A stretch of 64,000 nucleotides of DNA from the sequence record NC_100371.1. One strand, 5' to 3'. The position numbers were made by a program, and so were the translations under genes. The notes under the pieces were generated by a model that was not told where the DNA came from, ran no database searches, and was given only the letters and a program-made list of their open reading frames with translations. Position 1 is the stretch's first letter. Every line of letters starts with the position of its first letter. Origin of the DNA: a phage. Shown in pieces: positions 7,524-23,824 of this stretch.

Positions 7524-8504
7524 TTATTTATTGGATTCTTTACGTGCGCGAGCCAGAGCTTTAGCGACGTTTTCAGCAATAATGTCTTCAGCAGATTTAG
7601 CAATGTCGTCCACCACGACATCACCATCTTTACCTTGCTCTGTGGTTGCGAACTCTTCTTTAGCTTTTTCAACTTTAGCTTCCAGTTCAGCAATACGAGC
7701 TTGAGCTTTTTCCAGCAATTCAACAACAGGGGCGTTAGCTTTATCCAGCATGAATTCGACCAGAGATGCGTGGTCTTCTTCAGTGGTGAAGCTTAACGCC
7801 TGAGCTTTTTCCAGCATTTTAGCTTTTTCAACTTCTACCTGAGCCTTGATGATTTCTTCAGCTTTTTCATTGGTAGCTTTCAGTTCTTCGAACTGTTTCA
7901 GCAGGTCCAGGTACTCTTGAGACTTGGTTACGTCTTCCACCGGATTCTCCTCGGTATTTGCGGATTTATCAACATTGTCCACAGCGTCTGTAACAACTTC
8001 TTCTGTGGTTTCCTGTGCCGCTTTAATAAGTTTCCCTTCTTCATCGAAGAGATCAGCGGTCATCTGCTCAAAAACTTGTTGGGTTTTCAGCAGAGTGTAT
8101 TGGTCAACAATACTTAAATCTTTACCTTCTTTAGCAGCTTTGTGAATGGTTACGTTATCACAACGTTCTTCTAACCACTGCACACAAGCCTCTGCATCAG
8201 CCTGTGCCCACTCCCAATCTGGGTGTTCTTTTGCCCAAGCTTCTTCCTCAATCTCGAACCCAAGCAGGTGAGCCAGTGCCTTAGCATCGTCATACCACAT
8301 ATCGAAAAAACGACGCAGGTATTCTTCAAAGCTAAGTTCAACAGTAACTTGGCGAAGAGCCTTAACGATATCCTCTGTTAACTGCTCAGGCTTAAGATCG
8401 CTCTTCATTAAAAGAGATACAGGTCTGTTGTTAGCGCTATAACCTTGCGCCTTATGGCACAGGGCAATCCCCTTCTCTTTAATAGTGATTGTTTTTTCAG
8501 ACAT
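7524..8504 (-). CDS. head scaffolding protein
   Basis: 326-aa highly charged Glu/Lys/Ala-rich ORF with long predicted coiled coils between portal and decoration genes. Confidence 0.55.
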   Translation of the reverse strand: MSEKTITIKEKGIALCHKAQGYSANNRPVSLLMKSDLKPEQLTEDIVKALRQVTVELSFEEYLRRFFDMWYDDAKALAHLLGFEIEEEAWAKEHPDWEWAQADAEACVQWLEERCDNVTIHKAAKEGKDLSIVDQYTLLKTQQVFEQMTADLFDEEGKLIKAAQETTEEVVTDAVDNVDKSANTEENPVEDVTKSQEYLDLLKQFEELKATNEKAEEIIKAQVEVEKAKMLEKAQALSFTTEEDHASLVEFMLDKANAPVVELLEKAQARIAELEAKVEKAKEEFATTEQGKDGDVVVDDIAKSAEDIIAENVAKALARARKESNK

Positions 8505-14184: not shown

Positions 14185-14261
14185 TGGTCTCCACGGAGTG
14201 ATTCGAACACTCGACCTCCTGATCCCAAATCAGGCGCTCTACCAAGCTGAGCTACGCGGAG
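14185..14261 (-). tRNA. tRNA-Pro (anticodon UGG)
   Basis: Cloverleaf by eye: acceptor CTCCGCG/CGTGGAG (C1-G72 typical of Pro), anticodon loop TTTGGGA, T-loop GTTCGAATC, CCA encoded. Confidence 0.75.
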
Positions 14262-14272
14262 TATTTATTATT

Positions 14273-14347
14273 TGGTGGCCCTGGGTGGAATTGAACCACC
14301 GTCTGGCGATTATGAGTCGCTTGCTTGAACCTTCCAGCTACAGGGCC
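14273..14347 (-). tRNA. tRNA-Met (anticodon CAU; initiator/elongator/Ile-lysidine not distinguished)
   Basis: acceptor GGCCCTG/CAGGGCC, anticodon loop CTCATAA, T-loop GGTTCAATTCC, CCA encoded. Confidence 0.75.
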
Positions 14348-14348
14348 A

Positions 14349-14424
14349 TGGTGCTGATGGCAGGACTTGAACCTGCAACCTATTGATTACAAATCAATTG
14401 CACTGCCAATTGTGCTACATCAGC
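14349..14424 (-). tRNA. tRNA-Thr (anticodon UGU)
   Basis: acceptor GCTGATG/CATCAGC, anticodon arm ATTGA-TTTGTAA-TCAAT, T-arm GCAGG-TTCAAGT-CCTGC, CCA encoded. Confidence 0.75.
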
Positions 14425-14428
14425 AAAA

Positions 14429-14527
14429 GGTGCTAGGTGATGGAATCGAACCATCTATGTATTCAACGACTACCTCGTCTATTTTCAGGATTAAAAATCC
14501 TCGCCCTTGCCAAAGGGCTTACCTAGC
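14429..14527 (-). tRNA. atypical tRNA-like gene (99 nt; anticodon loop reads UUU; possibly degenerate or insert-containing)
   Basis: perfect acceptor GCTAGGT/ACCTAGC, D-arm GCCC-TTTGGCAA-GGGC, canonical T-arm GATGG-TTCGATT-CCATC, but about 30 nt between anticodon arm and T-arm. Confidence 0.4.
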
Positions 14528-14625
14528 TCAGCATGTTGACCATGTTGCTAGTCGGCGATGACGACTGTAACATTTGATAATCCGGTTCTGCTTCCGGCTT
14601 TCGCTTAATTACAAGGTCAACAATA

Positions 14626-14716
14626 TGGCAGAGGATAATGGAATCGAACCATCATCGAGTCATCCTCAACGGGACGGTTTTCAAGACCGCTTGAGCACCA
14701 TTGCTCCCTACCCTCT
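14626..14716 (-). tRNA. tRNA-Ser (anticodon UGA), type II
   Basis: acceptor AGAGGGT/ATCCTCT, anticodon arm GCGGT-CTTGAAA-ACCGT, long variable arm TTGAG-GATGA-CTCGA, T-loop GGTTCGATTCC, CCA encoded. Confidence 0.7.
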
Positions 14717-14830
14717 TTTATAAACAATACTGATAATGACACTGATTTTCGAGCAGTTAGTGACTAGTATAAACGACGATAAATATCAATGCCATTATCT
14801 GTATGATTTATGCATTTAAAAATATAAATT

Positions 14831-14918
14831 TGGTGGTGAGTGATGGAGTCGAACCACCCGAATCGCAATGATAACAGATTTACAGTCTGCCCCGCTACCC
14901 CTACGGAATTAACTCACC
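14831..14918 (-). tRNA. tRNA-Tyr (anticodon GUA), type II
   Basis: acceptor GGTGAGT/ACTCACC, anticodon arm GCAGA-CTGTAAA-TCTGT, long variable arm, T-loop TTCGACT, CCA encoded. Confidence 0.7.
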
Positions 14919-15048
14919 TAAATACTAATATTTAAATTCTTTTTAAAATAGCTAGTGTTCTAACCACTAACTATGAGGTATCGGTAAAGTGGTTACCGCC
15001 ACTTGCCGAAGATTTACTCTGCTAAAGTAAGCTACATTAAAAAGAACT

Positions 15049-15123
15049 TGGCACCCCGTACTGGACTCGAACCAGTGTCAACGGCTTAGAAGGCCGCTGC
15101 TTTATCCACTAAGCTAACAGGGC
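15049..15123 (-). tRNA. tRNA-Arg (anticodon UCU)
   Basis: acceptor GCCCTGT/ACGGGGT, anticodon arm GCGGC-CTTCTAA-GCCGT, T-arm ACTGG-TTCGAGT-CCAGT, CCA encoded. Confidence 0.7.
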
Positions 15124-17000: not shown

Positions 17001-17504
17001 AGCAGACTCCTCTTCAAGTTATAGAAAAACTCACTGTATCGCTTTGTAACGAGCTTTTCTATCAAACTGGTGCGATTGCCTTACTTGGTATAGTTTATAT
17101 AGCTGTGGAGCGATTTAGGGGCCTTCTTGTCAGTTTCCACACATAAACTTTATCCGAACTCGCGCGGGAGGCTCTCAACCGACTCCTTCCGGCGCTGGCA
17201 AGCTTTCGTCGGTGGTCCACATTAGTGCTCGGCCTTTGGCCTGCGCTATCGCTTCGCTCCCACACATGTTAACAGTCCTGCATGTATGCACTTCTGTTAT
17301 TGTGTGCACTATGGAGGCCCGGCATCTCGCCCCTCGTAGGCGAGTGCCAATGAAGGGCCGACACTACCCATAATAAGTAATAAATTTAAAACATGGTACT
17401 TAGGATCTAGTATATTCTACATAAGTTAAGTATATGTACTTTAGTACCATAAGTACTAGATCTTTTATTTTTTATTATTTAGTTATTTTAGTTATATTCT
17501 TTAT

Positions 17505-17587
17505 GTGTCCGTATCACGGACAGTTAGTGTCCGTATTACGGGCAGATGTGTCCGCGTGACGGACAGTAGTGTCCGTATCACGGACAG
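17505..17587. repeat. array of four 19-bp direct repeats, each an inverted-repeat palindrome (TGTCCGT-N3-ACGGACA), candidate operator/iteron array
   Basis: GTGTCCGTATCACGGACAG at 17505 and 17569; variants at 17528 and 17548; spacing 20-23 bp; AT-rich tract 17400-17500 adjacent. Confidence 0.7.
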
Positions 17588-17661
17588 TTACTAACCTCTG
17601 TTCCAGAGTGAACATAAAACATACAAATCCTTATAGTACAGATGTTTAAGTTTTTACTGGT

Positions 17662-18059: not shown

Positions 18060-18614
18060 TTACTCCCCGCTGTCAATAGCAAGACTCATTGCAATACGGT
18101 ATGCCTCTTCTAATGGTAAGAGTCTCCCCCACACATCCCAACCGACATCAAACTGCCTGCCAAACAACTGCTGTGTGGTTCCGTGAGCATGACCGAACAG
18201 TTGGACTGATCCGTGAGGCTTTCTGTTCCACTTTGCAAACTGGTAATGGCTCATACAGATCAAATTCTTGTTGTGGCGAAGCTCGTAATAATCTACAACC
18301 TCATGACCGAACTCTTTCATAATTCTGACAGTCGTCCTTGTGTCATGGTTACCACGAACAAGAATAATATGTCCGTTCAACATATTTAGAACATCTGGAA
18401 GCAATTTGTTGATATTCTTATCATTAGTGCACGCAATATCCCCCAAGTGAAACACAGTGTCTGCAGGTGACACAACAGAGTTCCACTTGGTGATGATTCC
18501 CGCATTCATACTGTCAAGATTGTGATCATACTGAGATCTGTGTTTTTGACATGAGTCGAACTCCATTACCCGCTGGTGGAGAAAGTGTGTGTCGCTTGTT
18601 ACAAAGTATTTCAT
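18060..18614 (-). CDS. calcineurin-like metallophosphoesterase (candidate polynucleotide 3'-phosphatase)
   Basis: Motifs DTHF, GDIACTND, GNHD, GHAH; start at internal ATG 18614 with GAGGA RBS (MKYFVTSDTHF...). Confidence 0.6.
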   Translation of the reverse strand: MKYFVTSDTHFLHQRVMEFDSCQKHRSQYDHNLDSMNAGIITKWNSVVSPADTVFHLGDIACTNDKNINKLLPDVLNMLNGHIILVRGNHDTRTTVRIMKEFGHEVVDYYELRHNKNLICMSHYQFAKWNRKPHGSVQLFGHAHGTTQQLFGRQFDVGWDVWGRLLPLEEAYRIAMSLAIDSGE

Positions 18615-18621
18615 ACATTCC

Positions 18622-19032
18622 TCATTTAAGTTTAATGCAGTTTTTAAGCTGGCGTTCCATACGATCCACAACCCTGTCTGGAACATCATGAATGCTTTTA
18701 TTACCATGGCGGTTTTCAACCACGATCACGGTATAACTATATCCATGACTGATCGCCATGTCAATATATTCTTGCACATATTTTTCTTTTGTAAACGTAT
18801 TACTTACCACGATACGGTCGTAGCCCATACGCATCATATCTTCTACGTTATCTTTGCACCATTTTGCTGCAAGTGTTACTTTACTTGCATCCCAATTGTA
18901 ATTGCCGTCATCGTCGTACCAGAACATATCGTTCTCAAAATGTGGATACAGACCTTCTAAAGATAGCGCATTTGCCAGTGTTGATTTGCCAGACCCTGGT
19001 AGACCACGCACGATATATAGCATTTTAGACAT
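18622..19032 (-). CDS. P-loop polynucleotide 5'-kinase-like protein
   Basis: Walker A GLPGSGKST as in T4 Pnk kinase domain (GCPGSGKST); start at ATG 19032 with GGAG RBS (MSKMLYIVRG...). Confidence 0.6.
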   Translation of the reverse strand: MSKMLYIVRGLPGSGKSTLANALSLEGLYPHFENDMFWYDDDGNYNWDASKVTLAAKWCKDNVEDMMRMGYDRIVVSNTFTKEKYVQEYIDMAISHGYSYTVIVVENRHGNKSIHDVPDRVVDRMERQLKNCIKLK

Positions 19033-19060
19033 AGTAACTCTCCGTTTTAATTTTAATGAT

Positions 19061-19089
19061 AGTATACCTAACTGTTTTGTTAATTTCAA
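19061..19089 (-). promoter_or_regulatory. sigma70-like promoter (TTGAAA-N17-TATACT) for kinase/phosphoesterase operon
   Basis: minus-strand TTGAAA at 19089-19084 and TATACT at 19066-19061. Confidence 0.5.
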
Positions 19090-19092
19090 GTG

Positions 19093-19121
19093 TTGACACC
19101 AGGTTATTTGTGTGGCAGAAT
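19093..19121 (+). promoter_or_regulatory. candidate divergent sigma70-like promoter (TTGACA-N17-CAGAAT) for RNA ligase gene
   Basis: TTGACA at 19093-19098; weak -10. Confidence 0.35.
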
Positions 19122-19132
19122 AAAGGGACAAA

Positions 19133-20068
19133 ATGACAAATGAGGAATGTATGATGAAGTATTTTAATGCAGACGACCTGGTTGACAAAGGTCTTGTAAC
19201 CAGCAGATATTACCCAGATCTTGGATTAAAGATCTACAAATATGCCAGAAAAGTATTCTACAACAATTTATGGCATTTGTCTCCGCGTTTACTAGAGTGC
19301 CGAGGCATTGTTGTCGGTAATGAAGGAAATGTTGTGGCATGGCCCTTCACAAAAGTGTTTAATTTGGGAGAAAACTCCACCAACCTGCCTGACAATAAAC
19401 TTGTGACGGCGGTAGAGAAAAAGAACGGATTCCTTGGTGTGGTATCATCTCATAAAGGTGAACTATTGTTTTCAACAACCGGGTCTCTTGATTCTCCATA
19501 TTGTAACCTTGCAAAGGAAACCATCCAGGAGCAATGTGGTAATTTAGATCTTATCAAGAAGGTTATGGGCCATGAAAACATGACATTCATGTTTGAAATT
19601 TGTCACCCTTCAGATCCGCATATTGTTCAGGAAGATCATGGCGCATATTTGATAGGTTGCAGATATAATGATTCTGGAATAATGCTACCAGAAGCAGCTT
19701 TAGATGGGATTGCCAAATACCTTGGTGCAAAACGTCCTCACACTGTGCGTGAAATTCCGTTCAGCTATGCAAAAGAATTAGCTGCAGAAACAAGGGGTGA
19801 AGGGTATATGATCCGTAAGCCTTACTACCCTTATGACCTGCAACTAAAGATCAAGTCTCCCTACTATCTGGCACGGAAGGCCGTAATGAGGTGTAGAGCT
19901 TGGAAGATTTGGGATGATGATATCTTTAAACGTGTTGACGAAGAGTTTTACGGCATGGTAAACTTCATTCGTAGGAACTACACAGAAGATGTGTGGAATT
20001 GCCTCCTGGAGCAGGAACGCCGTGAGATACTTGACTGCTATTTCCACAACGAGGACTATATGCAATGA
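19133..20068 (+). CDS. RNA ligase (T4 Rnl1/RnlA-like)
   Basis: Collinear with T4 Rnl1: LECRGIVVG, KVFNLGEN, adenylation lysine motif EKKNGFL, LKIKSPYY; likely true start at ATG about 19151 after GAGGA. Confidence 0.8.
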   Translation: MTNEECMMKYFNADDLVDKGLVTSRYYPDLGLKIYKYARKVFYNNLWHLSPRLLECRGIVVGNEGNVVAWPFTKVFNLGENSTNLPDNKLVTAVEKKNGFLGVVSSHKGELLFSTTGSLDSPYCNLAKETIQEQCGNLDLIKKVMGHENMTFMFEICHPSDPHIVQEDHGAYLIGCRYNDSGIMLPEAALDGIAKYLGAKRPHTVREIPFSYAKELAAETRGEGYMIRKPYYPYDLQLKIKSPYYLARKAVMRCRAWKIWDDDIFKRVDEEFYGMVNFIRRNYTEDVWNCLLEQERREILDCYFHNEDYMQ

Positions 20069-20415
20069 AGAAGTTGATTGTGTGGCTTGATGATTTTAGA
20101 GATCCGTCAGATTATGGACTACCAGACGCTCTGTGGCTGAAGAATTCTTCTGAGTTTATGGATTTTCTTAATGATAAGAGAAAGCTCTACAGACGCGTAT
20201 CTGAGTGGTATTTTGACAATGATCTAGGGGAAGTGCTTGAAGGGTACGACTGCTTCTCTGCGCTAGAGGAGAAACTTGTATTCGGAAAGCCACCACTTAT
20301 TGACAACGTGATTATTTTCGTGCATACTTCTAATCCATCGGCAGCTCGTAAATTTATGCTTGCTGCTGACTCATTCAAGAAGTTTGGAATAGAGATCAAA
20401 CAAAACATCTACTAA
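20065..20415 (+). CDS. hypothetical small alpha/beta protein, possible partner of the downstream Sir2 gene
   Basis: 116 aa; alternating beta/alpha segments (LIVWLDD, YFDNDLG, IIFVHTSNP); start overlaps RNA ligase stop; no family recognised. Confidence 0.4.
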   Translation: MKKLIVWLDDFRDPSDYGLPDALWLKNSSEFMDFLNDKRKLYRRVSEWYFDNDLGEVLEGYDCFSALEEKLVFGKPPLIDNVIIFVHTSNPSAARKFMLAADSFKKFGIEIKQNIY

Positions 20416-20423
20416 GGACATTT

Positions 20424-21185
20424 ATGCGACGACTTATTGTTATTTCTGGTGCTGGCTTGAGCGCAGAATCTGGGATCCCAACTTTTCGTTCTGGTCAAAC
20501 TGCAATGTGGGAGAATTTCAGCATCGATGAGGTGTGTAACATCCACACCTTTGCCAAGAACTACTATAAGGTGCATGACTTTTACAATGCACGGCGTGTA
20601 GCTCTGGGCAGTGTTGATCCTAACCTTGCACATCTCCGGATCGCTGAGTGGTATTCACGTTGGTCTGGTCGTGTGATCAACCTGACAACCAATGTAGATG
20701 ATTTGCTGGAGCGTGCTGGTGTTAAACATGAAGATATCTTACATGTCCACGGGTATTTGCCTGAAATCACCTACGAAGATGCTGAAGGTAATGATGTAAT
20801 TAAAAATATCGGATACACGGAGGTAGATACAGGCAAGTATACTTGGGTTAAGCCCAATGTGGTGTTCTTCGGTGAGGTTGCTCCTAAGTATACAGACATG
20901 TATGACCTATTGACATCTCTTACCAGCAATGATATGGTGATCCTGGTGGGTTGTTCTAACACAGTTATTAATTTTAACTGGGAATTGTTTCCTGCTACTT
21001 GTAAAGGCACAAAACTACTGATTGTAAACAAGTATGATTCGCAGAGTGCAGATGGAAGCGGCATTTCACGTAGCGACCTTTATCAATATGAGGATCGCGG
21101 GATCCCGGTTTGGTTTAACGGGGCGGTTGATGCTTTCTCTGATAAAACATTCATTGAGACCGTAGAAAACTTTATGGAACTTTAA
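20424..21185 (+). CDS. Sir2-family NAD-dependent protein deacylase / ADP-ribosyltransferase
   Basis: Sirtuin motifs GAGLSAESGIPTFR, TTNVDDL, catalytic His in LHVHGYL; canonical Zn-binding CxxC pairs not evident. Confidence 0.75.
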   Translation: MRRLIVISGAGLSAESGIPTFRSGQTAMWENFSIDEVCNIHTFAKNYYKVHDFYNARRVALGSVDPNLAHLRIAEWYSRWSGRVINLTTNVDDLLERAGVKHEDILHVHGYLPEITYEDAEGNDVIKNIGYTEVDTGKYTWVKPNVVFFGEVAPKYTDMYDLLTSLTSNDMVILVGCSNTVINFNWELFPATCKGTKLLIVNKYDSQSADGSGISRSDLYQYEDRGIPVWFNGAVDAFSDKTFIETVENFMEL

Positions 21186-21198
21186 AAGGAGACCTTTA

Positions 21199-21912
21199 AT
21201 GCTGAATACCAAATTAATTGACAACCTGGAAAAACTGTCCCAGCCTGAAAACTACCTTTGGTCTGCCAACTGGGTGGAAAACTGGAACCGTGTAGCAGCT
21301 AAAGTGAAAAAATCATACACACCATTCGAACTTCAGCTGAGTTTCATTGAGGAAGAGTTCAATGAGGTTTTGGAAGAGTTGGAGAAAGGTGATGGTGGGG
21401 ATCATCTCCTAAAAGAGGCCTGCGATCTTCATGTTGTCACAAGTTATGCCGCTTATCTTGTTAACGATAACCATGAAAAGTGGTCAAACCTGTTTGATAA
21501 TCCGCGAGGTCTTAAGTTTAAGATCGGTGAATTTTATGATACACTGATCGCTGCGAAAAATACCTCTAAGCAAAGAGCGTCTGCTTACCGCTTAGCAGAG
21601 TTGTCAACAGCTTTGCTGTTCCAGCTTCGCGGTGATGTGTGCGGGATGATGCGGAAGGTTCTAAAATCTAATGACAGCAAGTTTGCACGCGTCAACCATC
21701 TGCGGTATTCACACGGTGCCAGTGCAGATATGCCTGCTGAACAACTCATCGAGTTGGAGATTAAAGATCTTGAGCGACGCTTTGATGGTCGCTATGAAGG
21801 TTTTGTTGCTAAAGAAGAATTCTACAACGGAAATAAAGTTATCATATTCCTTGACAGTAAAGGTAAGATTATGAAGCCTTCAAGCTTCAAAGATGTAACA
21901 GAATATATTTAA
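21199..21912 (+). CDS. MazG-like nucleoside triphosphate pyrophosphohydrolase
   Basis: All-alpha NTP-PPase style acidic motif EEEFNEVLEELEKGD...EACDLHVV. Confidence 0.5.
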   Translation: MLNTKLIDNLEKLSQPENYLWSANWVENWNRVAAKVKKSYTPFELQLSFIEEEFNEVLEELEKGDGGDHLLKEACDLHVVTSYAAYLVNDNHEKWSNLFDNPRGLKFKIGEFYDTLIAAKNTSKQRASAYRLAELSTALLFQLRGDVCGMMRKVLKSNDSKFARVNHLRYSHGASADMPAEQLIELEIKDLERRFDGRYEGFVAKEEFYNGNKVIIFLDSKGKIMKPSSFKDVTEYI

Positions 21913-21976
21913 TAACATAGCCGGGGCGATCCCGGCTTTACTTGTTTCGGAAAGTATGCAAGTGAGGTAGAAAGTT

Positions 21977-22285: not shown

Positions 22286-22541
22286 TCTTGCTAAACCTGT
22301 AGAAGCACACCAGTTTGACGGAAGCTCTTCATCAGTATCTGATCTGCAACGGTGGATTGATACAGGTGTGTTTACACCGTCACCTGTTCGGACCAGAGAT
22401 ATTCTTCGCATGTGTGAGCTTGTCGAGCCGTTTGGTAACCTGGTCTTGTACCAAGGGGATTGGTTAGTTGACTTTATGGGAGACTGGTTGGTAATTAGCA
22501 AAGAAGAGATGTTTAAAATTTTTAAGGAAGAGGCTGAGTAA
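22272..22541 (+). CDS. hypothetical protein
   Basis: 89-aa ORF, RBS AAGGAGGA upstream. Confidence 0.4.
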   Translation: MQLFNLAKPVEAHQFDGSSSSVSDLQRWIDTGVFTPSPVRTRDILRMCELVEPFGNLVLYQGDWLVDFMGDWLVISKEEMFKIFKEEAE

Positions 22542-23824
22542 TGCATCAGATCAAAACAACACTGTACGCACTGAACAAAGATGGCAGCTACCAACAGTGG
22601 AAAGTATTCACGGATGGTGATAAGGTTATCGTAGAGTTTGGCAAGCTTGATGGTAAACTGCAATACAAAGAGACGATCTGCACACCTAAGAACGTGGGTC
22701 GTGCCAATGAAACTACAGCTGAGCAACAGGCTGAGCTGGAAGCGATCAGTAAGTGGGAAAAACAAGTCCGTCTGGGGTATGTTGAAAATATGGAAGATTG
22801 CGAGCAGGGTGTTGACCTTTTACCCATGTTGGTGCATGACTACCTGAAGCGTGGAAAGGCACTTAAATTACCTTGCTGGATTTTGCGTAAGTTAGATGGC
22901 CTTCGTCTACTGGTTGTTTTCCAAAACGGTGAGCCTAAATTTATTTCCCGTGGTAATAAGTCCTACCCTATTCAAGGAAAGCTTCTGGAGCAACTTCGTT
23001 CTTTCCACTTCACCACCGGGATTAAACAGCTCGACGGAGAGATCTATATTCATGGTCTGCCTCTGCAGAAAATAGTGTCTCTTGCTAAACGGTGGCGCAC
23101 ACAGGAAGAGATTCAGGCCGAGATCGATAAAGACTACGAGGCAGATAAAAAACGCCGTCATGCCGCAATTAAGGCAGGCTTATCAACATACAAAAACTTC
23201 AATAAGGTAGATATTCCTGTTGATGTTGAGCCTGTTCGTGATGATTTGCGTTACGGAGGGTACTGTAGCTATGACTTAGAGTATCATATTTTCGACATCC
23301 CTAGTGACAAGGTATGGTGGGATCCAGAAACAGAATCTGGACGATGCAAGGATCTTATGGATGCAGAAGATACCATTACCACCCTGATGCTTGACCATAT
23401 CAAGGTTGTTGACGCAGAGCTTGCGTACACAGTTGATCATTGCGAAGAATCTGTTGGTGTATTCATGTCCGAAGGATATGAAGGTACTATCATGCGTAAC
23501 TTCTGTGGTAAATATGAATATGGTCAGCGAACATCTGAAGCATTGAAATGGAAAAAGTTCAACGATGCTGAGGTGAAAGTTATTGACGTTGAGAAAGATA
23601 AGAATGATGAAGGTGTTCTTATCTGCGTTGACAAGGAAGGTATCGTTGTTAAAATGAAGATGAAAGGCACGCACGAGGAGCGTAGCTATGACAGGATGCA
23701 GGAAATGATCGGCAAGTTTATCACCTTCAAATATCAAGCAAGGACAGAAGACAACAACTACCAATTCCCTGTCGGCATCTGCGTCCGAAATGTTAACCCT
23801 GACACTTGGGAGGTTCTGGAATGA
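22541..23824 (+). CDS. ATP-dependent DNA ligase
   Basis: Nucleotidyltransferase motifs: I RKLDGLR, III LDGEIYIHG, IV YEGTIMR, V LKWKKF. Confidence 0.7.
   Translation: MHQIKTTLYALNKDGSYQQWKVFTDGDKVIVEFGKLDGKLQYKETICTPKNVGRANETTAEQQAELEAISKWEKQVRLGYVENMEDCEQGVDLLPMLVHDYLKRGKALKLPCWILRKLDGLRLLVVFQNGEPKFISRGNKSYPIQGKLLEQLRSFHFTTGIKQLDGEIYIHGLPLQKIVSLAKRWRTQEEIQAEIDKDYEADKKRRHAAIKAGLSTYKNFNKVDIPVDVEPVRDDLRYGGYCSYDLEYHIFDIPSDKVWWDPETESGRCKDLMDAEDTITTLMLDHIKVVDAELAYTVDHCEESVGVFMSEGYEGTIMRNFCGKYEYGQRTSEALKWKKFNDAEVKVIDVEKDKNDEGVLICVDKEGIVVKMKMKGTHEERSYDRMQEMIGKFITFKYQARTEDNNYQFPVGICVRNVNPDTWEVLE

What the first reader, a model, noticed from the sequence alone, without database searches (positions are those of the whole stretch)
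18060..20068. Three-gene RNA repair module (5'-kinase, metallophosphoesterase, Rnl1 ligase) in divergent arrangement
A P-loop kinase resembling the T4 Pnk kinase domain (GLPGSGKST) and a calcineurin-like phosphoesterase (DTHF/GDIACTND/GNHD/GHAH) are transcribed leftward from a TTGAAA-N17-TATACT promoter. An Rnl1-type RNA ligase, collinear with T4 RnlA (LECRGI, KVFNLGEN, EKKNGFL), is transcribed rightward from the same intergenic region. Together they supply the end-healing and sealing activities used to reverse host anticodon-nuclease cleavage of tRNA. Unlike T4 Pnkp, the phosphatase here is a metallophosphoesterase on a separate polypeptide, as in bacterial Pnkp-type repair enzymes.
Basis: partly seen in the sequence, partly recalled or inferred. 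Interest (0 to 1): 0.65.

Follow-up and report, generated by a model that had tools for sequence, protein, structure and literature searches.

The report
Phage RNA heal-and-seal repair gene cluster
This rV5-like E. coli phage carries a small kinase, a metal-dependent phosphoesterase and a T4-like RNA ligase that most likely rejoin tRNAs cut by host defence nucleases; the cluster is real and well conserved, but it is already annotated and discussed for this phage group.

Summary
Window 18060-20068 encodes a metallophosphoesterase, a 136-aa P-loop kinase and a ~304-aa RNA ligase, flanking back-to-back sigma-70-like promoters.

- **Ligase:** its profile hits only T4 Rnl1 among solved structures (1e-13), and every adenylyltransferase catalytic residue is present.
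- **Kinase:** sequence and predicted fold place it with the polynucleotide/tRNA kinases (T4 Pnkp, C. thermocellum Pnkp, Pnkp1, PSTK).
- **Phosphoesterase:** all metal-binding motifs are intact.
- **Linkage:** of 80 metagenomic phage loci with a ligase homologue, 70 carry the kinase (11 fused to the ligase) and 67 carry the phosphoesterase. Bacteria encode single kinase-Metallophos-ligase proteins with the same ligase clade.

Three amendments are needed:

- The module is larger. The ligase is in an operon with cREC, a Zn-less sirtuin and a MazG-like protein.
- The ligase C-terminal domain is not T4-like.
- The divergent layout is specific to this genus.

The window is 96-97% identical to over 100 deposited Vequintavirus genomes that annotate these genes. 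Iyer et al. 2022 describe this neighbourhood for phage V5. No biochemistry was found. An untested lead: the ligase clade keeps an invariant Asn/His/Lys/Arg set resembling the 2'-phosphate site of fungal tRNA ligase.

The parts
18060..18614 (-). Metallophosphoesterase, 184 aa, aq_1665-like subfamily; proposed 2',3'-cyclic-phosphate / 3'-phosphate end-healing enzyme
   Evidence: Pfam Metallophos_2 and Metallophos above cut-off. phrog_547 'phosphoesterase' 5e-51. The family profile hits PDB 1xm7 (aq_1665) at 2.5e-22. All metal-binding motifs are invariant in 28 homologues: D8, H10, G58-D59, G88-N89-H90, H123, G141-H142, H144.
18622..19032 (-). P-loop kinase, 136 aa; proposed RNA 5'-OH polynucleotide kinase
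   Evidence: Pfam AAA_33 2.7e-10. phrog_2071 2e-58 and phrog_505 'polynucleotide kinase' 3e-10. Profile against PDB: Pnkp1 1.5e-6, T4 Pnk 1e-5, PSTK 1.5e-5, C. thermocellum Pnkp kinase 4e-5; Asp35 aligns with T4 Pnk Asp35. AF2 model pLDDT 87; Foldseek top hits PSTK, C. thermocellum Pnk and T4 Pnkp at TM 0.72-0.76.
19061..19089 (-). Leftward promoter-like site TTGAAA-N17-TATACT, followed by GGAG 7 nt before the kinase ATG
   Evidence: Conserved in Vequintavirus relatives. An equivalent TTGACA-N17-TAATAT is present in L002.
19093..19121 (+). Rightward promoter-like site TTGACA-N17-CAGAAT, preceded by TG
   Evidence: The -35 block and the TGTGTGGCA block are the most conserved part of the intergenic region, including in L002.
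19154..20068 (+). ATP-dependent RNA ligase, 304 aa, with an Rnl1-like adenylyltransferase domain and a short helical C-domain. The adenylation Lys89 codon is 19418-19420. The ORF opens at 19133.
20065..20415 (+). cREC (cyclic-phosphate-processing receiver-like) protein, 116 aa; its start overlaps the ligase stop
   Evidence: Pfam PF20274 cREC_REC 1.1e-13. Predicted cyclic phosphodiesterase in the literature.
20424..21185 (+). Sirtuin, 253 aa, CobB-like, lacking the Zn-binding cysteines
   Evidence: Pfam SIR2 5e-28. Best PDB hit is E. coli CobB 1s5p at 3e-21. No phage residue aligned to a CobB cysteine in that stretch is a cysteine.
21199..21912 (+). MazG-like nucleotide pyrophosphohydrolase candidate, 237 aa
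   Evidence: phrog_671 'nucleotide pyrophosphohydrolase' 5.4e-22. No Pfam, NCBIfam or PDB hit. Called MazG in Iyer et al. 2022.
21919..21937 (+). Terminator-like GC-rich hairpin plus T-rich tail, closing the rightward four-gene operon

Best explanation
This is the RNA repair cluster of a Vequintavirus (rV5-like phage). [quoted passage not shown] The proposed steps are:

- The 136-aa kinase phosphorylates the 5'-OH.
- The metallophosphoesterase removes the cyclic or 3' phosphate.
- The ligase adenylylates itself on Lys89, transfers AMP to the 5'-phosphate and seals the break.

This is the same three-activity logic as T4 Pnkp plus Rnl1, but with three separate proteins and a binuclear-metal phosphoesterase in place of the T4 HAD-type phosphatase.

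The genes are expressed from back-to-back promoters. The ligase is co-transcribed with cREC, a sirtuin and a MazG-like enzyme. These probably extend the range of ends that can be repaired, or clear by-products.

Shown here: gene identities, catalytic residues, predicted folds, genomic linkage and domain fusions. Inferred: substrates, the order of steps and the biological target.
For: **Identities**
- Kinase: nearest solved relatives are polynucleotide and tRNA kinases, by sequence profile and by fold, at TM 0.72-0.76 against about 0.6 for gluconate kinase. The catalytic Asp35 is invariant.
- Phosphoesterase: the full set of metal ligands is invariant.

**Linkage**
- In 80 IMG/VR loci with a ligase homologue (38-89% identity), the kinase is present in 70 and the phosphoesterase in 67. 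Both are present in 59, and both lie within 2.5 kb in 53.
- They are on the ligase strand in every locus except the Vequintavirus one.

**Fusions**
- 11 loci encode a kinase-ligase fusion, confirmed by Pfam.
- 24 of the top 150 family representatives are 700-812 aa. All four that I scanned are AAA_33-Metallophos-RNA_lig_T4_1. A ligase-kinase and a further kinase-ligase fusion also exist.
- One such three-domain protein lies in a cellular-looking contig next to RuvA and EAL genes.

**Literature**
- The heal-and-seal concept and this very neighbourhood in phage V5 are described in PMC9503650 and PMC7824862.
Against: - I found no biochemical or genetic data for any member of this clade.
- Kinase similarity to polynucleotide kinases is remote (E 1e-5 to 1e-6). 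PSTK and other kinases of the same P-loop clade score similarly.
- The phosphoesterase subfamily (aq_1665) has no known substrate.
- In this phage, the kinase and phosphoesterase sit in a different transcription unit from the ligase.
- The ligase's operon partners (cREC, Sir2, MazG-like) suggest chemistry beyond a simple T4-like pathway.
- The ligase C-domain differs from the T4 Rnl1 C-domain that confers tRNA specificity (PMC11404444). tRNA as the substrate is therefore not established.
Confidence: 0.72

Rival explanations
1. Fungal-type pathway. The ligase clade needs a 3'-OH,2'-phosphate end, as Trl1 does. cREC and/or the phosphoesterase act only as cyclic phosphodiesterases and leave a 2'-phosphate. 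The kinase makes the 5'-phosphate and the ligase seals the break. The Zn-less sirtuin (or host KptA in phages that lack it) then removes the junction 2'-phosphate using NAD+, and the MazG-like enzyme clears the ADP-ribose-derived product.
For: - Iyer et al. 2022 propose a KptA-like role for this sirtuin clade in exactly this neighbourhood.
- In Trl1-LIG the 2'-phosphate site comprises Asn150 of motif I (KxNG), His227 (motif III Glu +9), and Arg334 and Arg337 (motif V Lys +9 and +12), next to a 79-aa five-helix C-domain (PMC6379707, PMC11404444).
- The phage clade has KxNG, where T4 has KEDG. It has His156 at motif III Glu +8, Lys242 at +8 and Arg246 at +12. These are invariant in 147/147, 147/147, 145/145 and 143/144 representatives.
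- It also has a ~70-aa helical C-domain.
- Ligase, cREC, Sir2 and the MazG-like gene form one operon.
Against: - The sequence profile finds T4 Rnl1 but no Trl1 chain at E<=10.
- The residue offsets differ by one position, and spatial equivalence could not be checked.
- T4 Rnl1 has an Arg aligned with the His, so a basic residue there may be general to these ligases.
- cREC, Sir2 and the MazG-like gene accompany the ligase in only 8, 6 and 8 of 80 loci. The kinase and phosphoesterase accompany it in 70 and 67.
Confidence: 0.17
2. The kinase and phosphoesterase are not RNA end-healing enzymes. They act on DNA ends (with the ATP-dependent DNA ligase at 22541-23824) or on nucleotides/NAD+ metabolites (with Sir2 and MazG). 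Their position next to the RNA ligase reflects only a general nucleic-acid-metabolism gene block.
For: - A DNA ligase homologue lies within 10 kb in 40 of 80 loci and 2.5 kb downstream here.
- There is a weak hit to the ligase-associated DNA-damage phosphoesterase PdeM, 2.4e-4 and far below cut-off.
- Nicotinamide riboside kinase appears among the P-loop hits.
- A kinase-phosphoesterase pair occurs in a 283-kb phage-like contig without an adjacent Rnl1-like gene.
Against: - The kinase is fused directly to the RNA ligase domain in 11 phage loci. Kinase-Metallophos-RNA ligase triple fusions also exist.
- Linkage to the RNA ligase is far tighter (within 2.5 kb in 63-66 of 80 loci) than to the DNA ligase.
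- The best full-length structural matches are polynucleotide and tRNA kinases.
Confidence: 0.07
3. The ligase serves mainly as a tail-fibre attachment catalyst, as T4 gp63 does and as many GenBank records label it. RNA ligation would be incidental.
For: GenBank annotations read 'RNA ligase and tail fiber protein attachment catalyst'. phrog_562 is filed under 'tail'.
Against: - These labels are transferred from T4 gp63 by homology.
- The T4-specific C-terminal half is not conserved.
- All ligase catalytic residues are invariant across 147 diverse members.
- The gene sits among early/nucleic-acid genes beside a kinase and a phosphoesterase, not among tail genes.
Confidence: 0.03

Closest known systems
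Bacteriophage T4 Pnkp + Rnl1 (tRNA repair against the PrrC anticodon nuclease)
   Different: In T4 the kinase and phosphatase are one polypeptide, and the phosphatase is a DxDxT/HAD enzyme (PMC3592404). Here the two are separate genes and the phosphoesterase is a binuclear metallophosphoesterase. The T4 Rnl1 C-domain (tRNA specificity) is replaced by an unrelated ~70-aa helical domain. Motif I is KxNG, not KEDG. Extra operon partners (cREC, Sir2, MazG-like) are present.
Sirtuin-centred phage RNA repair neighbourhood 'type 2', prototyped by Escherichia phage V5 and Proteus phage Mydo (Iyer, Burroughs, Anantharaman, Aravind 2022, PMC9503650)
   Same: This is the same gene set in the same phage group: T4-like tRNA ligase, cREC, nucleotide kinase, sirtuin, MazG and a calcineurin-like phosphoesterase. 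The window is 96-97% identical to Vequintavirus genomes.
   Different: That paper centres the system on the sirtuin and calls the phosphoesterase occasional. In my 80 ligase-anchored loci the reverse holds. The kinase (70) and phosphoesterase (67) are the near-constant partners, and cREC, Sir2 and MazG-like (8, 6, 8) are confined to the closest relatives.
Bacterial Pnkp of the Pnkp-Hen1 system (Clostridium thermocellum), and Pnkp1-Rnl-Hen1
   Same: Both combine kinase, metallophosphoesterase and ligase activities (PMC3675462, PMC1920235, PMC4411300). Kinase profile and fold matches include C. thermocellum Pnkp kinase and Pnkp1. Bacterial single-chain kinase-Metallophos-ligase proteins exist that carry this phage ligase clade as their C-terminal domain.
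Fungal tRNA ligase Trl1 (LIG-KIN-CPD; Rnl6 clade) with Tpt1
   Different: There is no detectable sequence-profile match to Trl1 chains. The end-healing enzymes are unrelated: no 2H CPD and no Tpt1/KptA. A 2'-phosphate requirement is untested.

Membership tests
Covalent lysine nucleotidyltransferase / ATP-dependent RNA ligase with Rnl1-like adenylyltransferase domain (Pfam RNA_lig_T4_1) | Motif I lysine (KxxG) plus motifs III, IV and V, and the N-terminal sub-domain residues equivalent to T4 Arg54, Lys75 and Phe77 | tested here: met
   Pfam 55.7 bits against a cut-off of 28.3. In the HMM alignment to 2c5u, LECRGI matches LECRGI. In 304-aa numbering the catalytic residues are K67/F69, K89-K-N-G, FE148, E216-G217 and K232-I-K234. 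These residues are invariant in 147 representatives, except F69 (Phe in 125, Tyr in 17).
Rnl1 family in the strict sense (families defined by the domain appended to the NTase core, PMC6379707; NCBIfam T4 RnlA equivalog) | T4 Rnl1-type C-terminal domain (aa ~255-374) that confers tRNA specificity | tested here: not met
Rnl6 (fungal Trl1-LIG) clade | Trl1-type five-helix C-domain with the His-Arg-Arg 2'-phosphate site, and a requirement for a 2'-phosphate end | tested here: inconclusive
   Analogous invariant Asn91, His156, Lys242 and Arg246 lie at nearly the same offsets. There is no sequence-profile hit to Trl1, and the C-domain is not clearly superposed. The end requirement cannot be tested with these tools.
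5'-OH polynucleotide kinase clade of P-loop kinases (T4 Pnkp-N, C. thermocellum Pnkp-N, Pnkp1, mammalian PNKP) | Walker A GxxGxGKS/T, a catalytic Asp general base about 20 residues downstream, a lid Arg, and the fold | tested here: met
   GLPGSGKST is present. Asp35 aligns with T4 Asp35 and is invariant. Arg128 is nearly invariant. Foldseek TM is 0.72-0.76 to C. thermocellum Pnk, T4 Pnkp and Pnkp1. Caveat: PSTK scores equally, and E-values are only 1e-5 to 1e-6.
5'-OH polynucleotide kinase clade | Phosphoryl transfer to a polynucleotide 5'-OH | not testable with these tools
   Supported indirectly by kinase-ligase and kinase-Metallophos-ligase fusions.
Calcineurin-like binuclear metallophosphoesterase superfamily | Motifs DxH, GD, GNH(D/E), H, GH and GxH that ligate two metal ions | tested here: met
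   D8-x-H10, G58-D59, G88-N89-H90-D, H123, G141-H142 and H144 are invariant in 28 homologues. Pfam hits are above cut-off.
C. thermocellum Pnkp-type / lambda-phosphatase-like 2',3'-phosphoesterase | Specific sequence relationship to the Pnkp phosphatase module, and 2',3'-cyclic phosphodiesterase/monoesterase activity on RNA | tested here: not met
   The profile search of PDB at E<=1 returns aq_1665 (2.5e-22), GpdQ-like phosphohydrolases and two others, and no chain described as a Pnkp phosphatase. The Metallophos domains of the bacterial triple fusions belong to a different subfamily from this protein (hhalign probability 9-30%). Activity is not testable here.
Sirtuin-centred phage RNA repair neighbourhood (Iyer et al. 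2022, type 2) | Co-located genes for a T4-like ligase, cREC, a nucleotide kinase, a sirtuin and MazG, with or without a calcineurin-like phosphoesterase | tested here: met
   All six genes lie between 18060 and 21912. The window is a Vequintavirus, the group named in the paper.

The most novel reading that the evidence does not exclude
The ligase clade found here, which in the searches made here turned up in many phages and as the C-terminal domain of bacterial kinase-Metallophos-ligase proteins, may be a prokaryotic counterpart of fungal/plant tRNA ligase that requires a 2'-phosphate end. It would read that end with the invariant Asn91, His156, Lys242 and Arg246. In Vequintavirinae the co-transcribed Zn-less sirtuin would then be an NAD+-dependent RNA 2'-phosphotransferase, a Tpt1/KptA analogue. 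That would be a new activity for a sirtuin. Phages lacking the sirtuin would rely on host KptA, which would give that enzyme a natural substrate.
Probability: 0.15. Interest if true: 0.75.

Novelty: already known. Interest (0 to 1): 0.3.

Why it matters
tRNA cleavage is a widespread anti-phage strategy, and T4 Pnkp/Rnl1 is the only phage repair answer studied in depth. This cluster shows the same logic built from different parts. In the loci I surveyed, the kinase-phosphoesterase-ligase trio is a recurrent unit that is sometimes fused. It is therefore a good candidate for biochemical work and for explaining host-range differences of rV5-like therapeutic phages.

As a discovery it adds little. 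The genes are annotated in more than 100 genomes, and the neighbourhood has been described in the literature. The open questions are the end specificity of the ligase and the role of the cREC-sirtuin-MazG genes.

Tried and rejected
- **Single-sequence PDB searches:** the ligase and kinase found nothing meaningful. Family profiles were needed.
- **First kinase structure job:** I rebuilt the alignment from database hits.
- **285-aa gene beside a kinase-phosphoesterase pair in a 283-kb contig:** tested as a hidden ligase, and it is not one.
- **Kinase-ligase fusion loci:** checked for a substitute phosphoesterase next door. None was recognisable.
- **Metallophos domains of the bacterial triple fusions:** checked against this phage's phosphoesterase subfamily. 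They are not the same subfamily. The fusions therefore support the functional trio, not orthology.
- **Burroughs & Aravind 2016 (NAR):** not available in the library.
- **HIDEN-SEQ preprint on the Vequintavirus Bas54:** the passages I retrieved from its main text say nothing about these genes.
- **Rfam:** found only tRNAs between 13500 and 22500.
- **Pfam on seven neighbouring small ORFs:** gave nothing relevant.
Full report
**What the window is.** The region is 96-97% identical over 2.9 kb to more than 100 deposited phage genomes, almost all Escherichia phages of the genus Vequintavirus (rV5-like myophages of ~136 kb). GC skew changes sign at about 19-20 kb. The annotated relative ECP32 shows leftward genes up to the kinase and rightward genes from the ligase onward. 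The intergenic region at 19033-19153 is therefore the strand switch between two large gene blocks, not a layout special to these three genes.

| Gene | Window coordinates | Size |
|---|---|---|
| Phosphoesterase | 18060-18614 (-) | 184 aa |
| Kinase | 18622-19032 (-) | 136 aa |
| Ligase ORF | 19133-20068 (+) | conserved start at 19154, 304 aa |

- Pfam gives Metallophos_2/Metallophos, AAA_33 and RNA_lig_T4_1, each above its curated cut-off.
- The leftward TTGAAA-N17-TATACT site (19089..19061) is followed by a GGAG 7 nt before the kinase ATG.
- A rightward TTGACA-N17-CAGAAT site with an upstream TG lies 4 nt away, at 19093..19121.
- Both sites are conserved in Vequintavirus relatives. Equivalents occupy the same positions in L002, whose intergenic DNA is otherwise diverged; there the scan finds 4 promoter-like sites against 0.4 expected.
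- Only the ATG at 19154 is conserved. With a start there, the predicted transcript has a ~25-nt leader containing GAGG.

**Ligase.**
- A profile of 26 homologues (A1) hits only T4 Rnl1 among all PDB sequences, at 1e-13. The match spans residues 45-232 of the profile and 50-249 of T4.
- Counterparts of T4 Arg54, Lys75, Phe77, Lys99 (motif I), Glu159, Glu227-Gly228 and Lys240/Lys242 are aligned. They are invariant across 147 representatives clustered at 50% identity, except the Phe77 counterpart (Phe in 125, Tyr in 17).
- The AF2 model is confident, with pLDDT 91.6.
- The last ~70 residues are helical and match neither the T4 nor the Trl1 C-domain.
- The NCBIfam T4 RnlA equivalog model scores 38.7 bits against a cut-off of 242.
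- Shuman's RNA ligase families are defined by the domain appended to the adenylyltransferase core (PMC6379707). By that definition this is an Rnl1-like adenylyltransferase with its own C-domain, not a strict Rnl1 orthologue.

**Kinase.**
- The family is very large, with the search saturating at 8,000 scored candidates of ~130 aa.
- Its profile hits Pnkp1 (1.5e-6), T4 polynucleotide kinase (1e-5), PSTK (1.5e-5), C. thermocellum Pnkp kinase (4e-5) and mammalian PNKP (1.6e-4). The nominally best hit, adenylate kinase 9, is a sum of short P-loop matches.
- Asp35 aligns with the T4 Pnk general base Asp35 and is invariant.
- The AF2 model (pLDDT 87) matches PSTK, C. thermocellum Pnk, T4 Pnkp and Pnkp1 at TM 0.72-0.76. 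Gluconate kinase and similar enzymes score near 0.6.
The similarity is nonetheless remote.

**Phosphoesterase.**
- All binuclear-metal motifs are invariant in 28 homologues.
- The closest solved relative is the uncharacterised Aquifex protein aq_1665 (2.5e-22). No chain described as a Pnkp phosphatase appears among the matches at E<=1.
- Its role in removing the 2',3'-cyclic phosphate is an inference. It rests on gene linkage and on the precedent of the C. thermocellum Pnkp metallophosphoesterase (PMC3675462, PMC1920235).

**Linkage beyond this phage.** I fetched 80 IMG/VR loci that encode a ligase homologue at 38-89% identity. I then searched their ORFs with iterated profiles of each window protein.

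| Partner of the ligase | Loci (of 80) | Notes |
|---|---|---|
| Kinase | 70 | 66 within 2.5 kb; 11 fused to the ligase N-terminus |
| Phosphoesterase | 67 | 63 within 2.5 kb |
| Kinase and phosphoesterase | 59 | 53 with both within 2.5 kb |
| cREC | 8 | closest relatives only |
| Sir2 | 6 | closest relatives only |
| MazG-like | 8 | closest relatives only |

- Gene order varies. The commonest orders are phosphoesterase-ligase-kinase (28 loci) and kinase-ligase-phosphoesterase (13 loci).
- The strand is shared with the ligase everywhere except in the Vequintavirus locus L002. The divergent arrangement is thus a genus-level rearrangement.
- In sister lineages the order is phosphoesterase-ligase-cREC-kinase-Sir2, all on one strand.
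- Pfam confirms the kinase-ligase fusion.
- An exhaustive profile search found 4,180 relatives at E<=1e-10. Of the best 150, 24 are 700-812 aa. The four of those I scanned are AAA_33-Metallophos-RNA_lig_T4_1. Ligase-kinase and kinase-ligase two-domain proteins also exist.
- One triple-domain protein lies on a contig with RuvA and EAL genes, so it looks cellular.
- Its kinase is only distantly related to the phage kinase, and its Metallophos domain belongs to another subfamily. The same three activities have therefore been combined with this ligase clade more than once. That is strong support for a functional trio.

**The larger module.**
- The ligase stop overlaps the start of a cREC gene (PF20274, 1e-13). 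A sirtuin follows 8 nt later and a 237-aa protein 13 nt after that. The run ends at a terminator-like hairpin at 21919-21937.
- The 237-aa protein matches a PHROG of nucleotide pyrophosphohydrolases at 5e-22.
- The sirtuin is closest to E. coli CobB. It keeps the NAD-binding and catalytic motifs but has no cysteine at any position aligned to a CobB cysteine.
- Iyer et al. [quoted passage not shown] They propose that the sirtuin acts like KptA/Tpt1 and removes a 2'-phosphate. They propose cREC, the calcineurin-like enzyme and others either open the cyclic phosphate or process the ADP-ribose product. cREC-ligase linkage is also discussed in PMC7824862.
- GenBank records already label the three genes RNA ligase, phosphoesterase and polynucleotide kinase.
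- I found no experimental work on them.

**Mechanism.** The best-supported reading (about 0.72) is a T4-like heal-and-seal pathway carried out by three separate proteins. cREC, Sir2 and the MazG-like protein would be a lineage-specific add-on.

A rival (about 0.17) is a fungal-type pathway. In Trl1-LIG the 2'-phosphate is read by four residues:

- the Asn of motif I (KxNG);
- a His nine residues after the motif III Glu;
- two Arg residues, 9 and 12 residues after the second motif V Lys.

The phage clade has KxNG where T4 has KEDG, a His at +8, a Lys at +8 and an Arg at +12. All are as invariant as the catalytic residues. This is a lead, not a result:

- the offsets differ by one position;
- T4 has an Arg aligned with the His;
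- no Trl1 chain is reached by the sequence profile;
- most family members lack cREC and Sir2 nearby.

**Verdict.** The finding is real and correctly read in outline, but incomplete. The system is already annotated and has been discussed in the literature for this phage group, so novelty is low. What remains worth testing is the ligase's end specificity and the function of the sirtuin branch.

Noticed in passing
window 14185-15123 (- strand): There is a phage tRNA cluster 3-4 kb from the repair genes, on the kinase strand. ARAGORN finds Pro(TGG), Met(CAT), Thr(TGT), Ser(TGA) and Arg(TCT). It also finds an odd 99-nt tRNA-like gene at 14429-14527, called with a 4-base anticodon. Rfam calls that one as tRNA (37.5 bits) and finds a further tRNA-like match at 14834-14918 (39 bits) that ARAGORN missed. 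These phage tRNAs could be substrates for, or an alternative to, repair.
   Followed up: partly
window 20424-21185 (+): The sirtuin is CobB-like (3e-21) and keeps the GAGxS, TNVD and HG motifs. No phage residue aligned to a CobB cysteine in the stretch after the HG motif is a cysteine, so the small Zn module appears degenerate. This may point to a non-peptide substrate.
   Followed up: partly
window 17001-17661: This ~660-bp stretch lies between a 192-aa gene and the HTH regulator gene. It has no convincing ORF, no annotated gene in the relative ECP32 and no Rfam match. Its function is unknown.
   Followed up: no
public records MG065658, MG065661, MG065682 and 15 others: Eighteen records named 'Campylobacter phage' (host Campylobacter jejuni, unannotated) match this E. 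coli Vequintavirus region. The six listed among the best hits are 96.5-97% identical to it. Mislabelling or contamination of those deposits seems likely.
   Followed up: no
window 18060-18090 (C-terminus of the phosphoesterase); alignment A3: Most homologues of the phosphoesterase end in a conserved His-His motif (consensus ...HH...). The Vequintavirus protein ends ...AIDSGE and lacks it.
   Followed up: no
L082 6001-7055; L087 6001-8304: The small kinase is followed directly by a Metallophos gene in a 283-kb phage-like contig without an adjacent Rnl1-like ligase. A 767-aa kinase-Metallophos-ligase protein sits in a cellular-looking contig between a HEAT-repeat gene and a DUF2201 gene, with no Hen1. 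I did not find this single-chain architecture with an RNA_lig_T4_1-type ligase described in the papers I read.
   Followed up: partly
window 22541-23824 (+): An ATP-dependent DNA ligase lies 2.5 kb downstream of the RNA ligase. A DNA ligase homologue lies within 10 kb of the RNA ligase in 40 of 80 related loci.
   Followed up: no
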